A stretch of DNA of 56,913 nt, counting the filler, from Candidatus Nanoarchaeia archaeon (GTDB lineage: Archaea > Nanobdellota > Nanobdellia > Woesearchaeales > JACQNA01), in assembly GCA_035289865.1 (NCBI GenBank). It is 6 parts of 6 records of this genome, joined end to end, with 100 filler letters (N's around TTAATTAATTAA, not from the genome) between each part and the next. Parts side by side here need not be neighbours in the genome. Positions count along the whole stretch, not along the records: positions 38,437 to 44,521 come from DATDVW010000114.1; positions 44,622 to 56,913 come from DATDVW010000115.1; 4 more parts are not named here. One strand, written 5' to 3'. Made by a program: the position numbers. Numbering within the stretch: the stretch's first letter is position 1; every line of letters starts with the position of its first letter. Below are positions 39,001 through 45,000 of this stretch, piece after piece.

Positions 39001-42000
39001 GTCGATGAACGTGATGGTGGTATCCACGGTCTCCGTAATCTTCTCCCCGGAGCCGACCGGGCCGTAGCTGACCGGCTCACCCTTGTTTCTGGCCTCTGTC
39101 CGGTATTTTCCCGGCACGCCGCTGCCGTACGCATAATAATAGATGTCTACGCTCACCGGCTCTTCTTTCTGGTTATCCAGGGTGAAGGTGAACTTGTCCA
39201 CCTTGAATATCCCGCTGTCCAGCGTCTGGGTCTCGATATTGCCTATGGTTGCCGTTACCTTGCCGGAGAGGGGCGGCTTTTCCGGCTCTTCGGTCTCGTT
39301 TTCCACAGGCAGTGTTAGCTCTGCCTCCTCTTCCTTGGCGATCATGGCGGTGGCCTCTTCCACGGGGATAGAGTCTTCATTTTCTTCCCCTGTCTCCCAG
39401 GCCAGCATGCTGAAACTGCCGAAATCGATATCATCAAAGAAGGCAAAATACCCCAGGACCAGGATGATGGCGATGAAGATGCCCCGCTCAACGGTGCGGG
39501 GATTGACGCTGAACTTCAGCACCACCTCTTTCTTCTGGCCGCCGAACTCGCTCTTGGAGAATATCTGCTTGCGCTGCGCGGGGGCGTACTCTTTCTTCGG
39601 CGCAGGGCGTTCCGGGCGCTCCGCCTCATCTTTCTCTTCCTTGGCCTGCCGGAAGACATCGCCTTTCGCCTTCTTGGCGCTTCCGGGGACCACGATCTTG
39701 TCCAGGACGTCTGGCATGGATTGGTGCTTGCCAATGCCCTATTTAAATCTTTTTCTTTGGTGGGGAAGTATGGTTGGATTCCTATTACTTTTATTGGGTA
39801 GTAAAGTTGGTACGGGGGACAAGAGATAAAGAATCCCATCATTTCACTGACCACTGGACATGCACAGCCACCACCTATTTAAAGGAGAATGCTTCTCTAT
39901 CGTTGATGAAACTCGACATAAATCTTGCCGCTATCCACGGTTATCTCTGTTCAGATGGCTACGTCATCAAAAATCCACCCAGTCAACCTCATAGATACTA
40001 TCATATCGGATTACGGAACACTAACCTTGTTCTTCTGGAAGATTTTCAGCAGAAGTTTAAAGCGGCATTCGGTCTCCGGCCGATTATCACTGATGAGGGC
40101 AGGTGCAAGATCCAAAATAAGGAGATCTATGGGACCTTAACTAAAGATTTTTCTTATTACTCTTATGAATGGGTATTACCCAAGCTGAGCAGATGTCCAT
40201 TACGGTATTGGTTACGGGCTTTCTTTGACTGTGAGGGGTGGGTCGAAAATCAACCCGCAAAAAGCAGGCTGATCGGCGCAGATTGCTGCAATAAAAAGGG
40301 CTTATTCGGCGTCCAAACAGCTTTACGGGAGTTTCACATAGACTCCAGCGTCAAAAAGAAAAATGGCAGAAATATCTGGCGCCCGACTATATGCGGGCTT
40401 CAAGATCTCCATGCCTTTCAGGAGTCCATTGGTTTTTTGCATCCTCAAAAAAGCAAAAAATTGGGTGAAGCAATAGCCTCTTACCCAGACTATTCTTGGC
40501 ATATACCTGAAATTAAAAGAGATTTGCTTGAGTTTATAGCTAAAAAGGGAAAAATCAGGGAATCCCGGAACGAAATCAGGTTTTTATCGATCAGAAAAGA
40601 CAACCTCGCCCATTTAAGGAAAGCTTTAAAAAAGCACGGCATACACTCCCGGATATTCGGCCCGTGGAAGAGCAGCACCGGCTCTTTATACCATTGCCTA
40701 ATCATAAAACATAAGGGGGTCATACATGCAACAGATGAGCGGAAGGCCAAAAGACATCAAGCAAATATCTGATGTCATTTGGGAGATACCGCAGTCCTTT
40801 AAAAAGGGAATGTTAGTGCCTGCAAGGATTTATGCGACAAAAAAGCTCCTTGCAGAGATGGACGACGGCGTCTTTAACCAGCTAACCAATGTCGCCTGCC
40901 TGCCTGGGATCCAGCAACATGCATTTTGCATGCCCGATGGTCATATCGCCATGTAGTTCAGTCTACGGCGAGACAAGTGGGGATACGGCTTTCCCATCGG
41001 CGGGGTAGCGGCGTTTGACACCAGCGAGGGAGTGATATCGCCGGGCGGTATTGGATTCGATATCAATTGCGGCATGCGCCTCGTCACCACCAACCTGACC
41101 TTTGCAGAGGTGCAGCCCCGGCTGCGCGAGGTGGTGGACACCCTGTTCAGGACTGTTCCTGCAGGCGTCGGCAGCAAGGGATTTCTCCAGGCCTCGGTGC
41201 CCCAGTTCAAGCAGATCATGGAGGAAGGCGTGCGCTGGGCTGTGGACAACGGCTACGGCTGGGAAGACGACCTGCAGAACACCGAGGGATCCGGCAAGAT
41301 TGAGTGGGCGGATGCCTCAAAGGTCTCTGACAAGGCGATCAGCAGGGGGATCAACCAGCTCGGCACCCTGGGAAGCGGGAACCATTACCTGGAGGTGCAG
41401 GTCGCCCATGCCACAAACATCTTTGACGAGAAGTATGCGCGGGCGTGCGGCATCACCAAGCCGGACCAGGTGGTGATCATGGTCCACTGCGGCAGCAGGG
41501 GATTCGGCCATCAGATCGGCACCGACTACCTCAAGATATTCGAGGATGCCATGCGGAGATACAGCATCACTGTCCCTGACCGGGAGCTTTCCTGCGCGCC
41601 GTTCAGCAGCAAGGAGGGGCAGGATTACTATGGGGCGATGGCCTGCGCAGCGAACATGGCGTTCACCAACCGCCAGGTGATCATGCACCGCATCCGTGAG
41701 GCGTTCTCCAAGGTCTTCGGGCGCTCTGCCGAGGAGCTCGAGATGAACCTGGTCTATGACGTCGCGCACAATATCGCGAAAGTCGAGAAATACAAGATCG
41801 ACGGCAGCTGGAAGGAGGTCGTGGTGCACCGCAAGGGCAGCACCCGGGCATTCGGGCCGGGCAACCAGGAGCTTTCCTCGCGCTATCAGGAGATCGGGCA
41901 GCCGGTGATCATCGGCGGAAGCATGGAGACCGGCAGCTACCTGCTTGCCGGGACCAAGAAAGCGGAGGAAGAGACCTTCGGGAGCACGGCGCATGGCTCC

Positions 42001-45000
42001 GGCAGGACGATGTCCCGGGCGCAGGCGAAGCGGGAGGTCCGGGGGGACCAGCTCCAGAAGGCGATGGAGAAGAGGGGGATCTATGTCAAGGCGGTCTCCA
42101 TGCCGGGGCTGGCTGAGGAGGCAGGGCTCGCGTACAAGGACATTGATGAGGTCATCGACACGCTGGACCGGGCGGGAATCTCGAAGAAGGTTGTGGCGCT
42201 CAAACCCGTGGGAAACGTCAAGGGATAGCGCGAAAGTATTTTAAACTCCTTTTCTTTCAATGATGGTATGGCCAAAAAATACCGGTTTTTCGACGATATC
42301 GCCACCGCGGACGCCGCATTCGAGGCATACGGCAAAGACCTGCCGGAGCTCTTCACCAACTCCGCGCTCGCGACATTCTCCGTCATGGCTGAGCTGAAGA
42401 GGGTCGCGCCGAAGATAAAGAAAGAGATTGCGCTGCAGAATCCAAGCACCGATGGCCTGCTGTTCGACTTCATCCAGGAGCTGATATACCTCAAGGATGC
42501 GGATTATATGCTCTTCTCCAAGTTCACGGTGCAGATCGCCGGGGGGAACCTGGCTGCCACTGCCTACGGCGAGCACATCAACCCGAAGAAGCACCAGCTG
42601 CTGACCGACGTCAAGGCGATGACGCTGCATATGTACTCGGTGCAGCGGACGAAGAGCGGCTGGAAGGCGTTTATTATCCTGGATACATAAAAGGCACACT
42701 TCTCATATCGTCAGGATCTTCCCCTCTTTCCCGACGTTAATCACTCGCGTCTTCCCTATCTTATCTTCCAGGCCTGCTGCCTCATGGATGTGGCTGCAGA
42801 GCAGCAGGTCAGGCTGGAAGGCCTCCAACGCCTTCTTGACTCCCGCAGACCCGGTGAACCTGCTGAACTTCTCGATGAGGGAATCCGCGGGATGGACATG
42901 CGTCACCATGATGCGCTTGGGCAGGTCCTTGATCTTGTCAAACCCCTTCTTGAGGAGCGCATAAATCTCCTTGTCCGGCACCATGGTGGGGCCGATATTG
43001 GCTCCCCCGCAGCCGAAGATGCCCACATCCTCATACTGGACAGAGTAGCCGTGGATGTTCTTGACGCCGTACACCTCGGCAAGGAAATCAGCGGTGGCAA
43101 AGGAATCATGGTTGCCGGGGATGATCAGCACCTTCTGCTTTTTCTTCACAAACGGGCCGAGGATATTCTCATGATGCTCATCAAACCGGGTGATGTCGCC
43201 GCAGAGGATCACCAGGTCCACCTTTTCTTTCTCTGCCCTCGCCGCCAGCTTCTCGGCATGGCCTGAGTCCCCGTGGATGTCGCCGAACGCCAGTATCTTC
43301 ATCGCTTCCGCTCCGTCACCCTGACCTTTGCTGCGGTGAAATCCATCAGTGTAGAGGGATGGCCGCGCTTCTCCCCCTCGTAGACCGCAAAATCTATCTT
43401 CGCCCTTATTCCCTGGTCCAGGTCGTCCAGCGAGGTCATGAATTCCTCGCCGGCAAGGTTTGCCGAGGTGCTCACTATCGGGATGTCCAGCTCTGTCGCT
43501 GCCTGGCGGAACCAATGATCAGGCATCCGCACGCCCAGGGAATCCTCCCCTTTGTTGACCTCTTTCGCGATGCATCCCTTGTTTTTCAGCCCGAGAATCA
43601 GGGTATGTGATCCCGGCCACTTGCTCAGCCACTGCTCTGCCTGCTTGGGCACTGCACAGTTCTCCTTCACCCATTCCTTTGAGGGGGCCATCACCAGCAG
43701 CGGCTTCGCATACCTTCCCTTGATCTCGCGGAGGCGCTGGACTGCCGCTCCATTGGTGGCGTCGCAGCCGATGCCATAGATCGTATCTGTCGGATGGATG
43801 AAGACAGCCCCTTTCTTGATCTCCCGGTACACCTTGCTCCTGTTGAGATTGAACTCCGCCTGGTCGATGATTCTCATGCTGGGAGAGAAGGGTTCTGGTT
43901 TTAAAAACGTATCTGTTTGACTATTTTTTCCTTCTTCCGAGAGCAACAATCAGCACCCCGGCTCCAATCAGCACAATCAACACCACCGGAACAATCATCA
44001 CTAATGGATCCTTTTTTATCGGCTGCGTAAGTGCAATAGCTGCTTCTGTTCCCAATTCCTCACTCTCATTTCCTCCGACCGCTGTTGCGGCAGTTGTCGC
44101 ATTCACTTCTGCCCCTTGCGCTGCTGCCTTCACCCTCCCGGTCACCACAAAATACGAAAATCCAGGCGTATCCGCCTCGTAAAACACCGTGCTTCCCACA
44201 TTCTTCGTCTTCCGCGTCTCCAGCTCCTCCCAGGCAGAAGTATACCTCTGCAAGAGCACTTCATCCTCCCCAACCTCTTCCTTCTCCAGCCAACTTCCTG
44301 GAACCTTGAAGGTTATTGTCGCTTCCTTGAGGTTTTTCTCCTCAATGTTCTTCCTGGAAATCTCCAGGAACTGATATGCTGCTCCGGCAGGAGCAGGCAG
44401 CGTATCCGGCTTCTTGCTCCCCAGGCTCGCCACCTTCACCTCTGCGTTCGACAATGCGCTGTCCACCGTGATCCTCACCTGCTCCACGCTGATGGCATCT
44501 TTCGCTACATTCACCACATGCNNNNNNNNNNNNNNNNNNNNNNNNNNNNNNNNNNNNNNNNNNNNTTAATTAATTAANNNNNNNNNNNNNNNNNNNNNNN
44601 NNNNNNNNNNNNNNNNNNNNNCGCCATATCGGTGACGATATCGGCACGCTGGGGCAGGTGTTCCTCCTCATGCATATCATTGCACTGCATCTTCCCTACC
44701 TCGATATGGACCTGCCCTCCCTGGTGCCGAAGCTTGCGGACCTGGAGCGGAATCTTGCCGAGGAGCAGCCTGACCTGTATGTCGAGATCCTGTTCGCCTT
44801 TGACAGGAAGGTGCAATGTCCCGGTGACCTGCCCAGGGCAGTCCACTGGCTGCAGATGAGGATAGTGGATCTTGACCTCCAGACGCAGCGTGCGGCATGG
44901 GCGTTTGCCACTTACATCTCCCGCTTCCGCAGCAGCCCCATGATGATGGTGGGCATTATTGACCTAAAACCCCCGGATCCCTCCGGTGAACAAACAAAAG

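What a model noticed while it worked through the whole genome (the two positions that open the first line are those of the whole stretch)
40726..42228. BHB micro-intron splits the rtcB (tRNA ligase) mRNA at its active-site motif
The only rtcB gene is interrupted right after the catalytic D-x-H codons by a 33-nt insertion (C114:2509-2541) with an in-frame TAG that folds as a bulge-helix-bulge (BHB) intron; removing it restores MPDGH|WGYGFPIG and a 489-aa RtcB. The RNA ligase that seals spliced exons would thus need splicing of its own mRNA, a protein-gene intron in Woesearchaeales.
Evidence so far: Call 13: insertion and stop; call 206: spliced frame 489 aa. Calls 17/20/39/41: 31-33-nt insertions at the same codon boundary in 7 other Woesearchaeales genomes (lengths 31, 32, 33, not frame-preserving), stem sequence varies with pairing kept, central helix GGTC/GACA changes to GGCC/GGCA in G111; a second BHB intron site 2 codons downstream in 7 further genomes; about 133 of 140 relatives with a match have an open frame. 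EndA gene present (g00674).
(Added by a program. Inside this text positions count along the whole contig: they may not be those of the stretch shown here. "Call 12" and the like, gene names such as g00115 and contig names such as C1 are that model's own, and its searches are not shown. The text may have been shortened before it was handed on; [...] marks where a part breaks off. The agent that wrote the report below was given it as the finding of a first reader that could run no searches.)

Follow-up and report, generated by a model that had tools for sequence, protein, structure and literature searches.

The report
RNA ligase gene with mobile micro-intron
The only gene found for the RNA-joining enzyme RtcB in this small archaeon is broken by a 33-base insert that is likely cut out of the message like a tRNA intron and resealed by RtcB itself, and it likely spreads between genomes together with a neighbouring gene for a predicted DNA-cutting enzyme.

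Summary
Confirmed. A 33-nt insert (40945-40977, in-frame TAG) splits the genome's only rtcB match two codons after the essential Asp; removing it gives 489 aa. It is not an assembly error, and the gene is under purifying selection. Among 173 related loci, 152 distinct 26-39-nt inserts sit at three positions of this motif. None leaves the frame open, and all three groups show bulge-helix-bulge geometry with covarying stems. Five more positions recur in the DINC motif. This site's motif is relaxed (G·A pair, no exon helix). No RNA was available, so splicing is inferred (~0.9). Of its 15 family hits in 401 genomes, 14 flank rtcB, 10 of them with a micro-intron. Here the endonuclease gene and exon 1 form a low-GC tract ending at the intron, as homing would leave. 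Best reading: an EndA/RtcB-spliced mRNA intron spread by collaborative homing (~0.6). Not found in print in my searches; this scan reported both parts before on other DNA.

The parts
39906..40772 (+). Free-standing two-motif LAGLIDADG endonuclease-like gene (288 aa from the likely ATG; the ORF is open from 39774), overlapping the rtcB start by 47 nt
   Evidence: Pfam LAGLIDADG_3 E 8.9e-22; 47-71% identity family, 15 rows; the model of the G300 relative matches PI-PfuI and I-DmoI; GC 43%
39740..40950 (.). Low-GC tract (endonuclease gene + rtcB exon 1 + intron start), read as a likely co-conversion tract; its ends are approximate
   Evidence: GC 0.37-0.49 inside versus about 0.6 on both sides; exon 1 GC 0.47 versus exon 2 0.60-0.64; 0 of 177 comparable ORFs show as large a GC step, 4 of 177 in GC3
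40726..40944 (+). rtcB exon 1 (73 codons, ends in P-D-G-H; the Asp is equivalent to P. horikoshii Asp65)
   Evidence: numbering counted from the 7lfq alignment of a relative
40945..40977 (+). 33-nt predicted BHB intron. 5' bulge AT|A (40943-45); intron helix 40946-50 with 40967-71; inner stem 40953-56 with 40963-66; central helix GGTC 40939-42 with GACA 40972-75 (G·A at the exon end); 3' bulge AG|T (40976-78); in-frame TAG 40954-56
40978..42228 (+). rtcB exon 2 (416 codons plus TAG) with the DINCG, GNHY, HCGSRG, HN and HGSGR motifs
   Evidence: Pfam RtcB E 1.2e-162; motifs and dN 0.038 / dS 0.557 against G069
42268..42690 (+). Archease, the RtcB activator, directly downstream
   Evidence: Pfam Archease E 1.4e-39

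Best explanation
The 33-base insert breaks the rtcB reading frame and is likely an intron that the tRNA-splicing endonuclease EndA cuts out of the message and existing RtcB reseals, and it likely spreads with the adjacent predicted homing endonuclease gene, whose inferred target in intron-less rtcB the intron would disrupt. Shown: insert, stop, restored frame, covarying BHB geometry, purifying selection, endonuclease gene next to rtcB, low-GC tract ending at the intron. Inferred: cleavage at the two bulges and ligation by RtcB with archease (~0.9); new RtcB then depends on inherited RtcB. Also inferred (~0.65): the endonuclease cuts the conserved PDxH-x-GYG coding DNA of a naive allele, and repair copies endonuclease gene, exon 1 and intron across (collaborative homing). 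The intron acts as the element's immunity, and the host tolerates it because it is spliced.
For: Intron: 152 distinct inserts of 26-39 nt at three positions of the motif (59, 12, 81) among 173 loci; 0 of 152 leave the frame open. The first four intron-helix pairs are 98-99% paired against 18-78% for slid partners. At this site i2, i3, i4 and central pair c3 exceed all 2000 column shuffles. At the Tyr site the intron's partner strand follows the exon codons (GGGG/CCCT, AAGG/CCTT, TAGG/CCTG, TTGG/CCAG, GCGG/CCGC). Five more recurring positions in the GGxGxDINC motif have the same geometry. Exon 2 dN/dS is about 0.07 between G000 and G069, whose inserts differ in length (33 and 32 nt). 45 of 52 testable loci read through to a full frame after one removal, and 6 of the 7 others break in the second motif. 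EndA is present. Homing: 14 of 15 family hits in 401 genomes flank the rtcB start; 10 of the 14 have a micro-intron. A full gene lies upstream in 37 of 88 intron loci and in 0 of 30 intron-less loci. It occurs in both orientations. The acidic catalytic position is kept in 42 of 43 (motif 1) and 39 of 43 (motif 2) copies. The GC step falls at the intron. dS against G069 is 0.15 in exon 1 and 0.56 in exon 2. Synonymous codon identity to four low-GC same-site alleles is 0.52-0.62 in exon 1 and 0.16-0.33 distally. Site A, site B and intron-less alleles interleave on the rtcB tree (quick tree).
Against: No spliced RNA was seen. This site has G·A in place of the fourth central pair in 53 of 59 sequences and lacks an exon helix. 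[quoted passage not shown] Junctions in relatives were chosen as the best-pairing of the protein-compatible offsets, which favours pairing. Sequences are related, so shuffle counts are not probabilities. EndA is a single 197-aa subunit with no second subunit found; its ability to cut relaxed motifs is untested. Homing: 46 of 88 intron loci have no trace of the endonuclease upstream. 4 of the 14 endonuclease-flanked rtcB genes have no micro-intron, although 3 of these depart from the PDxH-x-GYGFP consensus and 2 carry an intein. The profile was built from 8 of the 14; of the 6 new ones only 2 have an intron. The all-against-all test for exon 1 exchange is weak (0.44 versus 0.38). The cut site is unknown, and LAGLIDADG folds also include maturases and WhiA.
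Confidence: 0.62

Rival explanations
1. The insert is a spliced BHB intron but is not moved by the endonuclease. It arose by transposition or reverse splicing from tRNA-type introns and is kept by drift or as a feedback switch that ties RtcB output to splicing capacity. The endonuclease is a separate parasite of rtcB.
For: 46 of 88 intron loci lack the endonuclease. Eight positions are occupied, more than one enzyme's cut site needs. In-frame stops are enriched inside the inserts (57 of 59 at this site against 26 and 29 in the other frames and 33 expected; 74 of 80 at the Tyr site), which fits selection on how unspliced mRNA is translated. A regulatory role was proposed for the cbf5 intron (PMC2738675).
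Against: Only 18 of 401 genomes match the pattern, patchily, which is unlike a conserved regulator. Enrichment beside the endonuclease is 8 of 14 versus 10 of 373 (kin not independent). The low-GC tract ends at the intron. Endonuclease remnants lie beside some intron alleles, for example G069. Stop enrichment is absent at the third site (6 of 12) and may be inherited from one ancestor.
Confidence: 0.26
2. The insert is removed or bypassed some other way: a different nuclease or ligase, the LAGLIDADG protein acting as a splicing helper, ribosomal bypass, or TAG read-through.
For: The motif is relaxed at this site. This insert is a multiple of three with one stop. The fold search also returns maturases.
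Against: 90 of 152 inserts shift the frame, including the 32-nt one in the same-genus G069. TAG ends rtcB itself and 46 of 214 long ORFs in G000. Read-through would put 11 residues into the active-site motif. The 2+1 bulge geometry fits EndA at every position. There is no Rfam match.
Confidence: 0.08
3. rtcB is dead or split here (pseudogene or two-piece protein), or the insert is an assembly error.
For: Two separate ORFs of 76 and 398 aa can be called. These are reduced, probably host-dependent archaea (background knowledge).
Against: Contigs of three further runs carry the insert unchanged. dN/dS is about 0.07. The same position is used in dozens of genomes. The two pieces would lose the WGYGFPIGGVAAFD stretch. 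No second rtcB was found, and the genome has intron-containing tRNAs.
Confidence: 0.04

Closest known systems
BHB intron in cbf5 pre-mRNA of Desulfurococcales and Sulfolobales (Yokobori 2009, PMC2738675; passages read)
   Same: Short ORF-less intron (16-44 nt there, 26-39 nt here) in a protein-coding gene, at a catalytic-motif codon of an RNA-processing enzyme, with a BHB-like structure cut by EndA.
   Different: Different gene and lineage. At least eight positions instead of one. The host gene is the ligase of the same pathway. Patchy, apparently horizontal distribution beside an endonuclease gene, whereas cbf5 is described as one gain with losses. Splicing is shown for cbf5 and not here.
Collaborative homing in phages (free-standing endonuclease next to an ORF-less group I intron; described in PMC10448857, passage read)
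   Same: The endonuclease gene lies beside, not inside, the intron-bearing essential gene; the intron sits in a conserved coding motif; both are predicted to travel together.
   Different: Here it is a cellular archaeal chromosome, a LAGLIDADG enzyme and a protein-spliced 33-nt BHB intron instead of a self-splicing ribozyme. Cleavage has not been tested.
Archaeal rRNA BHB introns that encode LAGLIDADG homing endonucleases (I-DmoI type; mentioned, fold match)
   Same: BHB intron plus a two-motif LAGLIDADG fold.
   Different: The endonuclease is outside the intron, the target is a protein gene, and the protein has a third C-terminal alpha/beta domain.
HVO_1309 5'-UTR intron of Haloferax volcanii (PMC7714728, passages read)
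   Same: EndA acts on an mRNA.
   Different: Untranslated region, so no reading frame depends on it.
Inteins in RtcB at the DIN|C site (seen here in G160, G315, L088 and others; the Pyrococcus case is recalled)
   Same: A selfish insert in a conserved RtcB active-site motif.
   Different: Removed at protein level. Their endonuclease domains were not hit by the profile of the free-standing family in L088, L060 and L123.

Membership tests
Archaeal BHB intron (EndA/RtcB pathway) | Two 3-nt bulges, cut after the second base, separated by a 4-bp central helix | tested here: inconclusive
   Geometry fits at this locus, but only 3 of 4 pairs are standard; the fourth is G·A in 53 of 59 site-A sequences. 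4-pair helices are the rule at the other positions (91% and 100% of cells paired at the two neighbouring sites).
Archaeal BHB intron (EndA/RtcB pathway) | Intron-side helix h' next to the 5' bulge, supported by covariation | tested here: met
   59, 58, 59 and 57 of 59 paired at i1-i4; i2-i4 beat 2000 of 2000 shuffles; slid partners 39-78%.
Archaeal BHB intron (EndA/RtcB pathway) | Exon-side helix h (needed only for the strict hBHBh' class) | tested here: not met
   In-register exon pairs e2 and e3 form in 3 and 0 of 71 rows (before 14 misassigned rows were corrected); the site is a relaxed HBh'-like motif.
Archaeal BHB intron (EndA/RtcB pathway) | Removal at the bulges restores the functional RNA (here the reading frame) | tested here: met
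   489 aa with all RtcB motifs; 45 of 52 testable relatives read through in full after one removal.
Archaeal BHB intron (EndA/RtcB pathway) | EndA and ligase encoded by the host | tested here: met
   EndA on C54; rtcB and archease. The subunit type and specificity loop were not determined.
Archaeal BHB intron (EndA/RtcB pathway) | Excision from the transcript in vivo or by EndA in vitro | not testable with these tools
   No RNA holder listed.
Free-standing LAGLIDADG homing endonuclease | Two LAGLIDADG motifs with acidic catalytic residues and the LAGLIDADG fold | tested here: met
   Asp in motif 1 in 42 of 43 copies and Glu/Asp in motif 2 in 39 of 43; model pLDDT 90.7 of the G300 relative; best fold matches PI-PfuI, TliVMA intein, I-DmoI.
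Free-standing LAGLIDADG homing endonuclease | Lies outside any intron or intein, at a fixed locus, patchy among relatives | tested here: met
   15 of 401 genomes, 14 beside the rtcB start, either orientation.
Collaborative homing pair | The endonuclease cuts at the intron insertion site, and the intron-containing allele is immune | not testable with these tools
   Only association and sequence mosaicism could be examined.
Collaborative homing pair | Co-conversion of DNA between the endonuclease gene and the cut site | tested here: inconclusive
   Clear at this locus; weak over all pairs.
Group I or group II self-splicing intron | Ribozyme core of some hundred bases | tested here: not met
   33 nt; no Rfam match up to E 1 in 39600-42400.

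The most novel reading that the evidence does not exclude
DPANN archaea carry a two-part selfish element never described for protein-spliced introns: a free-standing LAGLIDADG endonuclease that attacks the active-site codons of rtcB, plus tRNA-type micro-introns (11-39 nt, at least eight positions) that make the gene immune. The arms race has repeatedly made the splicing ligase dependent on its own activity, and the same pairing may drive tRNA intron gain (a second endonuclease-intron pair sits at tRNA-Leu in this genome).
Probability: 0.55. Interest if true: 0.86.

Novelty: new variant of a known kind. Interest (0 to 1): 0.74.

Why it matters
Coding-region pre-mRNA splicing in archaea is known from one gene, cbf5 (stated in PMC7714728, 2020). 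Short BHB introns at eight or more positions of rtcB across records titled Woese-, Aenigm- and Micrarchaeota would make it a recurrent feature of DPANN. Automatic annotation would be truncating an essential gene in about 5% of one order (18-20 of 387). The ligase would depend on its own activity. The endonuclease link offers a directly testable answer to an old question: how ORF-less BHB introns, which cannot move themselves, are gained and spread. The set of natural variants, including G·A central helices and 11-12-nt introns, is also a ready substrate panel for DPANN EndA.

Tried and rejected
RNA evidence: no RNA holder listed among 12 runs, so this says nothing either way. Eight DNA runs were laid. 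None showed a clean intron-less joint of this allele; two contigs join across the site with other letters and belong to other organisms. Viral contigs gave 0 pattern matches, and the endonuclease had no match in 50,697 phage records. The loose GTDB pattern returned 120 loci, of which 87 were not rtcB and were dropped, including L057. Two of 173 loci were set aside from the site counts: L272, a duplicated stretch with N, and L255, a single case at another offset. One search misassigned 14 rows (a third site and three wrong anchors); one search replaces it. An ab initio scan for other micro-introns in G000 gave 1233 raw hits. A strict coding filter lost the rtcB control; a looser one kept 29 with rtcB ranked first. 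The other 28 were not checked by homology, so other protein-gene introns are neither shown nor excluded. cbf5/TruB in G000 shows no stop inside the match. The one RNA_ligase Pfam hit looks like an ATP-dependent DNA ligase by its motif (motif recalled). No stub of an older rtcB start was found upstream of the endonuclease. A pattern for second-motif inserts gave 0 of 151 genomes. The careful tree did not finish, so only the quick tree was used, with one long-branch row (L260) unreliable. My patterns cannot see two inserts in the same motif or inserts longer than about 45 nt. A search for 'RtcB Asp65 His404' found no paper.
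Full report
Observation. The window reads ATG CCC GAT GGT CAT, then 33 bases (40945-40977) with an in-frame TAG, then TGG GGA TAC GGC TTT CCC. 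Deleting the 33 bases gives a 489-aa frame, and no other 33-nt deletion gives the same product. The halves match Pfam RtcB 1-23 and 23-426, and archease follows at 42268. This is the only RtcB match in the 99.67%-complete genome. Counting along the 7lfq alignment of a relative, the Asp of PDGH is P. horikoshii Asp65. D65A is inactive and not rescued by archease (PMC3973293, passages). Contigs of runs X3, X4 and X5 span the insert with 0 differences.

Structure at this locus. The predicted fold places AT|A and AG|T as the two bulges, with GGTC/GACA between them and a 5-bp helix TCGCC/GGCGA on the intron side. The fourth central pair is G·A and there is no in-register exon helix, so this is a relaxed motif. 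The insert alone folds better than shuffles (z -3.2), the flanked region hardly so (z -1.1 to -2.0). [quoted passage not shown] My loose scan of G000 gave 1233 hits. The case therefore rests on comparison.

Comparison. In 401 genomes of the order, 387 have an rtcB match and 18 match a pattern with extra bases in the motif, with 0 in the backwards control. Nine are at this boundary and nine inside the Tyr codon; two more in a divergent rtcB type turned up later (G336, G162). A partial GTDB scan (17 of 64 parts, 120 loci) gave 33 rtcB loci. All have archaeal titles: 13 Woesearchaeota, 2 Nanoarchaeota/Nanoarchaeia, 8 Aenigmatarchaeota, 4 Micrarchaeota, 4 Methanosarcinales, 2 unnamed archaea; none is bacterial. 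A partial metagenome scan (40 of 64 parts) gave 120 more. Of 173 loci, two were set aside. The rest give 152 distinct inserts of 26-39 nt at three positions: H|W (59), TG|G (12) and T|AY (81). Ninety shift the frame, 62 carry an in-frame stop and none is open. The first four intron-helix positions are 98-99% paired against 18-78% when slid. At this site three intron pairs and one central pair beat all 2000 column shuffles, while the fourth central position is G·A in 53 of 59. At the Tyr site the intron strand tracks the exon codons. Caveats: junctions in relatives were picked as the best-pairing protein-compatible offset, and the sequences are kin. Thirty-five of 171 loci have a second insert in the GGxGxDINC motif. 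With these occupy five recurring positions, nearly all with 4 of 4 central pairs, the shortest 11-12 nt.

The gene is alive. Between G000 and the same-genus G069 (32-nt insert), exon 2 has dN 0.038 and dS 0.557. 45 of 52 testable loci read through in full after one removal, and 6 of the other 7 break in the second motif. TAG is an ordinary stop here (46 of 214 long ORFs), and frame-shifting variants rule out read-through as a general route. EndA is present as one 197-aa gene with no clear second subunit. PMC5829648 (passages) links L3-loop alpha4 EndAs of DPANN to more disrupted tRNA genes; I did not test for that loop. No RNA could be examined.

The neighbour. An ORF with a LAGLIDADG_3 domain (39906-40772) overlaps the rtcB start. 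I noted the idea of a co-moving endonuclease before reading earlier scan notes. A 15-row alignment finds 15 of 401 genomes at E up to 1e-30, and 14 lie within about 400 nt of the rtcB start. Ten of the 14 have a micro-intron in the motif. Two have an intein at DIN|C (G160; G315, which is unpublished) and two have neither but carry altered motif codons (G236, G027). Eight of the 14 were in the training set; among the six new ones two have the intron. Counting only pattern-detected introns the table is 8 of 14 against 10 of 373 (Fisher p 1e-8, overstated by kinship). A full copy lies upstream in 37 of 88 distinct intron loci with enough flank, a remnant in 5 and nothing in 46. None of 30 intron-less loci has it (26 had over 1100 nt upstream; these were the top-scoring matches and include unpublished G112). 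Catalytic acidic residues are kept. The model of the G300 relative (pLDDT 90.7) matches PI-PfuI, a VMA intein and I-DmoI, but also maturases and WhiA.

A footprint in the window. GC drops from about 0.6 to 0.37-0.49 between about 39,740 and 40,950 and recovers at the intron. The endonuclease gene is 43% GC, exon 1 47% and exon 2 60-64%. None of 177 comparable ORFs shows so large a GC step after codon 73; 4 do in GC3. dS to G069 is 0.15 in exon 1 and 0.56 in exon 2. Synonymous identity to four low-GC same-site alleles is 0.52-0.62 in exon 1 and 0.16-0.33 distally, but over all pairs the effect is weak (0.44 versus 0.38). On a quick tree of the distal protein, site-A, site-B and intron-less alleles interleave, and near relatives differ in site (G189 and G250). 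No leftover of an older rtcB start was found.

Mechanism. Shown: the insert, the stop, the restored frame, the covarying structure, selection on the gene, the adjacent endonuclease gene and the compositional tract. Inferred (~0.9): EndA cuts after the second base of each bulge and RtcB with archease joins the exons, so new ligase needs inherited ligase. Inferred (~0.65): the endonuclease cuts intron-less rtcB near this motif, and repair copies endonuclease gene, exon 1 and intron into the recipient; the intron protects the carrier. Joint confidence is about 0.6. The main rival is a spliced intron that spreads by other means and may be kept for feedback (0.26). The excess of in-frame stops in the inserts fits either reading.

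What is known. The closest case is the cbf5 intron (16-44 nt, in the catalytic Asp codon; PMC2738675, passages). PMC7714728 (2020, passages) names cbf5 as the only earlier BHB intron in an mRNA and adds a 5'-UTR case. Collaborative homing is described for phage group I introns (PMC10448857, passages). Nine searches listed no paper on introns in rtcB. Passage searches in PMC12397907, PMC13149111 and the 2026 Nanobdellota preprint found none either. The library lacks most subscription journals, and I did not see any supplements; those of the bioRxiv preprints are closed and could hold annotations that bear on novelty. Earlier notes of this scan report rtcB micro-introns and the endonuclease link in other genomes; they are not counted as evidence.

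Verdict. A real, very probably spliced BHB micro-intron in rtcB, one of a family at eight or more positions in DPANN, probably carried by a free-standing homing endonuclease. It is a new variant of a known kind; interest 0.74.

Noticed in passing
G000:C1:7416-8358 (outside the window): A second free-standing, low-GC (0.32-0.41) LAGLIDADG ORF overlaps the 5' end of a tRNA gene. Removing a 31-nt BHB-shaped insert upstream of the anticodon makes ARAGORN read tRNA-Leu(GAG); unspliced it was called tRNA-Thr. A second endonuclease-intron pair in one genome.
   Followed up: partly
L044, L104, L195, L234 (12 nt) and L219 (11 nt), rtcB P-G-G-A|TC position: Very short inserts with a 4-of-4 central helix (GAGG/CCTT), no intron helix and, in the 12-nt ones, an in-frame TAA: candidate bulge-helix-loop introns of 11-12 nt.
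   Followed up: partly
rtcB GGxGxDINC motif in 35 of 171 intron loci, plus several found: Second 22-35-nt BHB inserts at four further positions around the metal-binding Asp. A pattern for two of these positions found 0 of 151 genomes drawn from the order, so they seem to pile up in alleles that already have an intron.
   Followed up: partly
L032, L060, L088, L123, L179, L182, L197, L200, L202, L225, L226, L234 and others: Intein-like in-frame insertions at DIN|C of RtcB, in some alleles together with one or two micro-introns.
   Followed up: no
site-A and site-B inserts: An in-frame stop lies wholly inside 57 of 59 and 74 of 80 inserts, including frame-shifting ones, against 33 and 45 expected from shuffles; there is no excess at the third site (6 of 12). 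It may reflect selection to stop ribosomes on unspliced mRNA, or shared descent.
   Followed up: partly
L038 (G069), L047, L125: Only the 3' remnant of the endonuclease gene is left upstream of an intron-bearing rtcB, as expected late in a homing cycle.
   Followed up: no
L055, L060, L127, L159: Four records titled Methanosarcinales carry such inserts. L055's rtcB is sister to G379's on the quick tree, so either the label is off or the gene was transferred.
   Followed up: no
G000 tRNA genes: ARAGORN finds only 18 tRNA genes in a 99.67%-complete genome, several with odd introns, which suggests more interrupted tRNAs are being missed.
   Followed up: no
G000:C73:29709-29924, C40:10076-10228, C75:3130-3561: LAGLIDADG domains inside long ORFs (1267, 914, 859 aa), probably inteins.
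   Followed up: no
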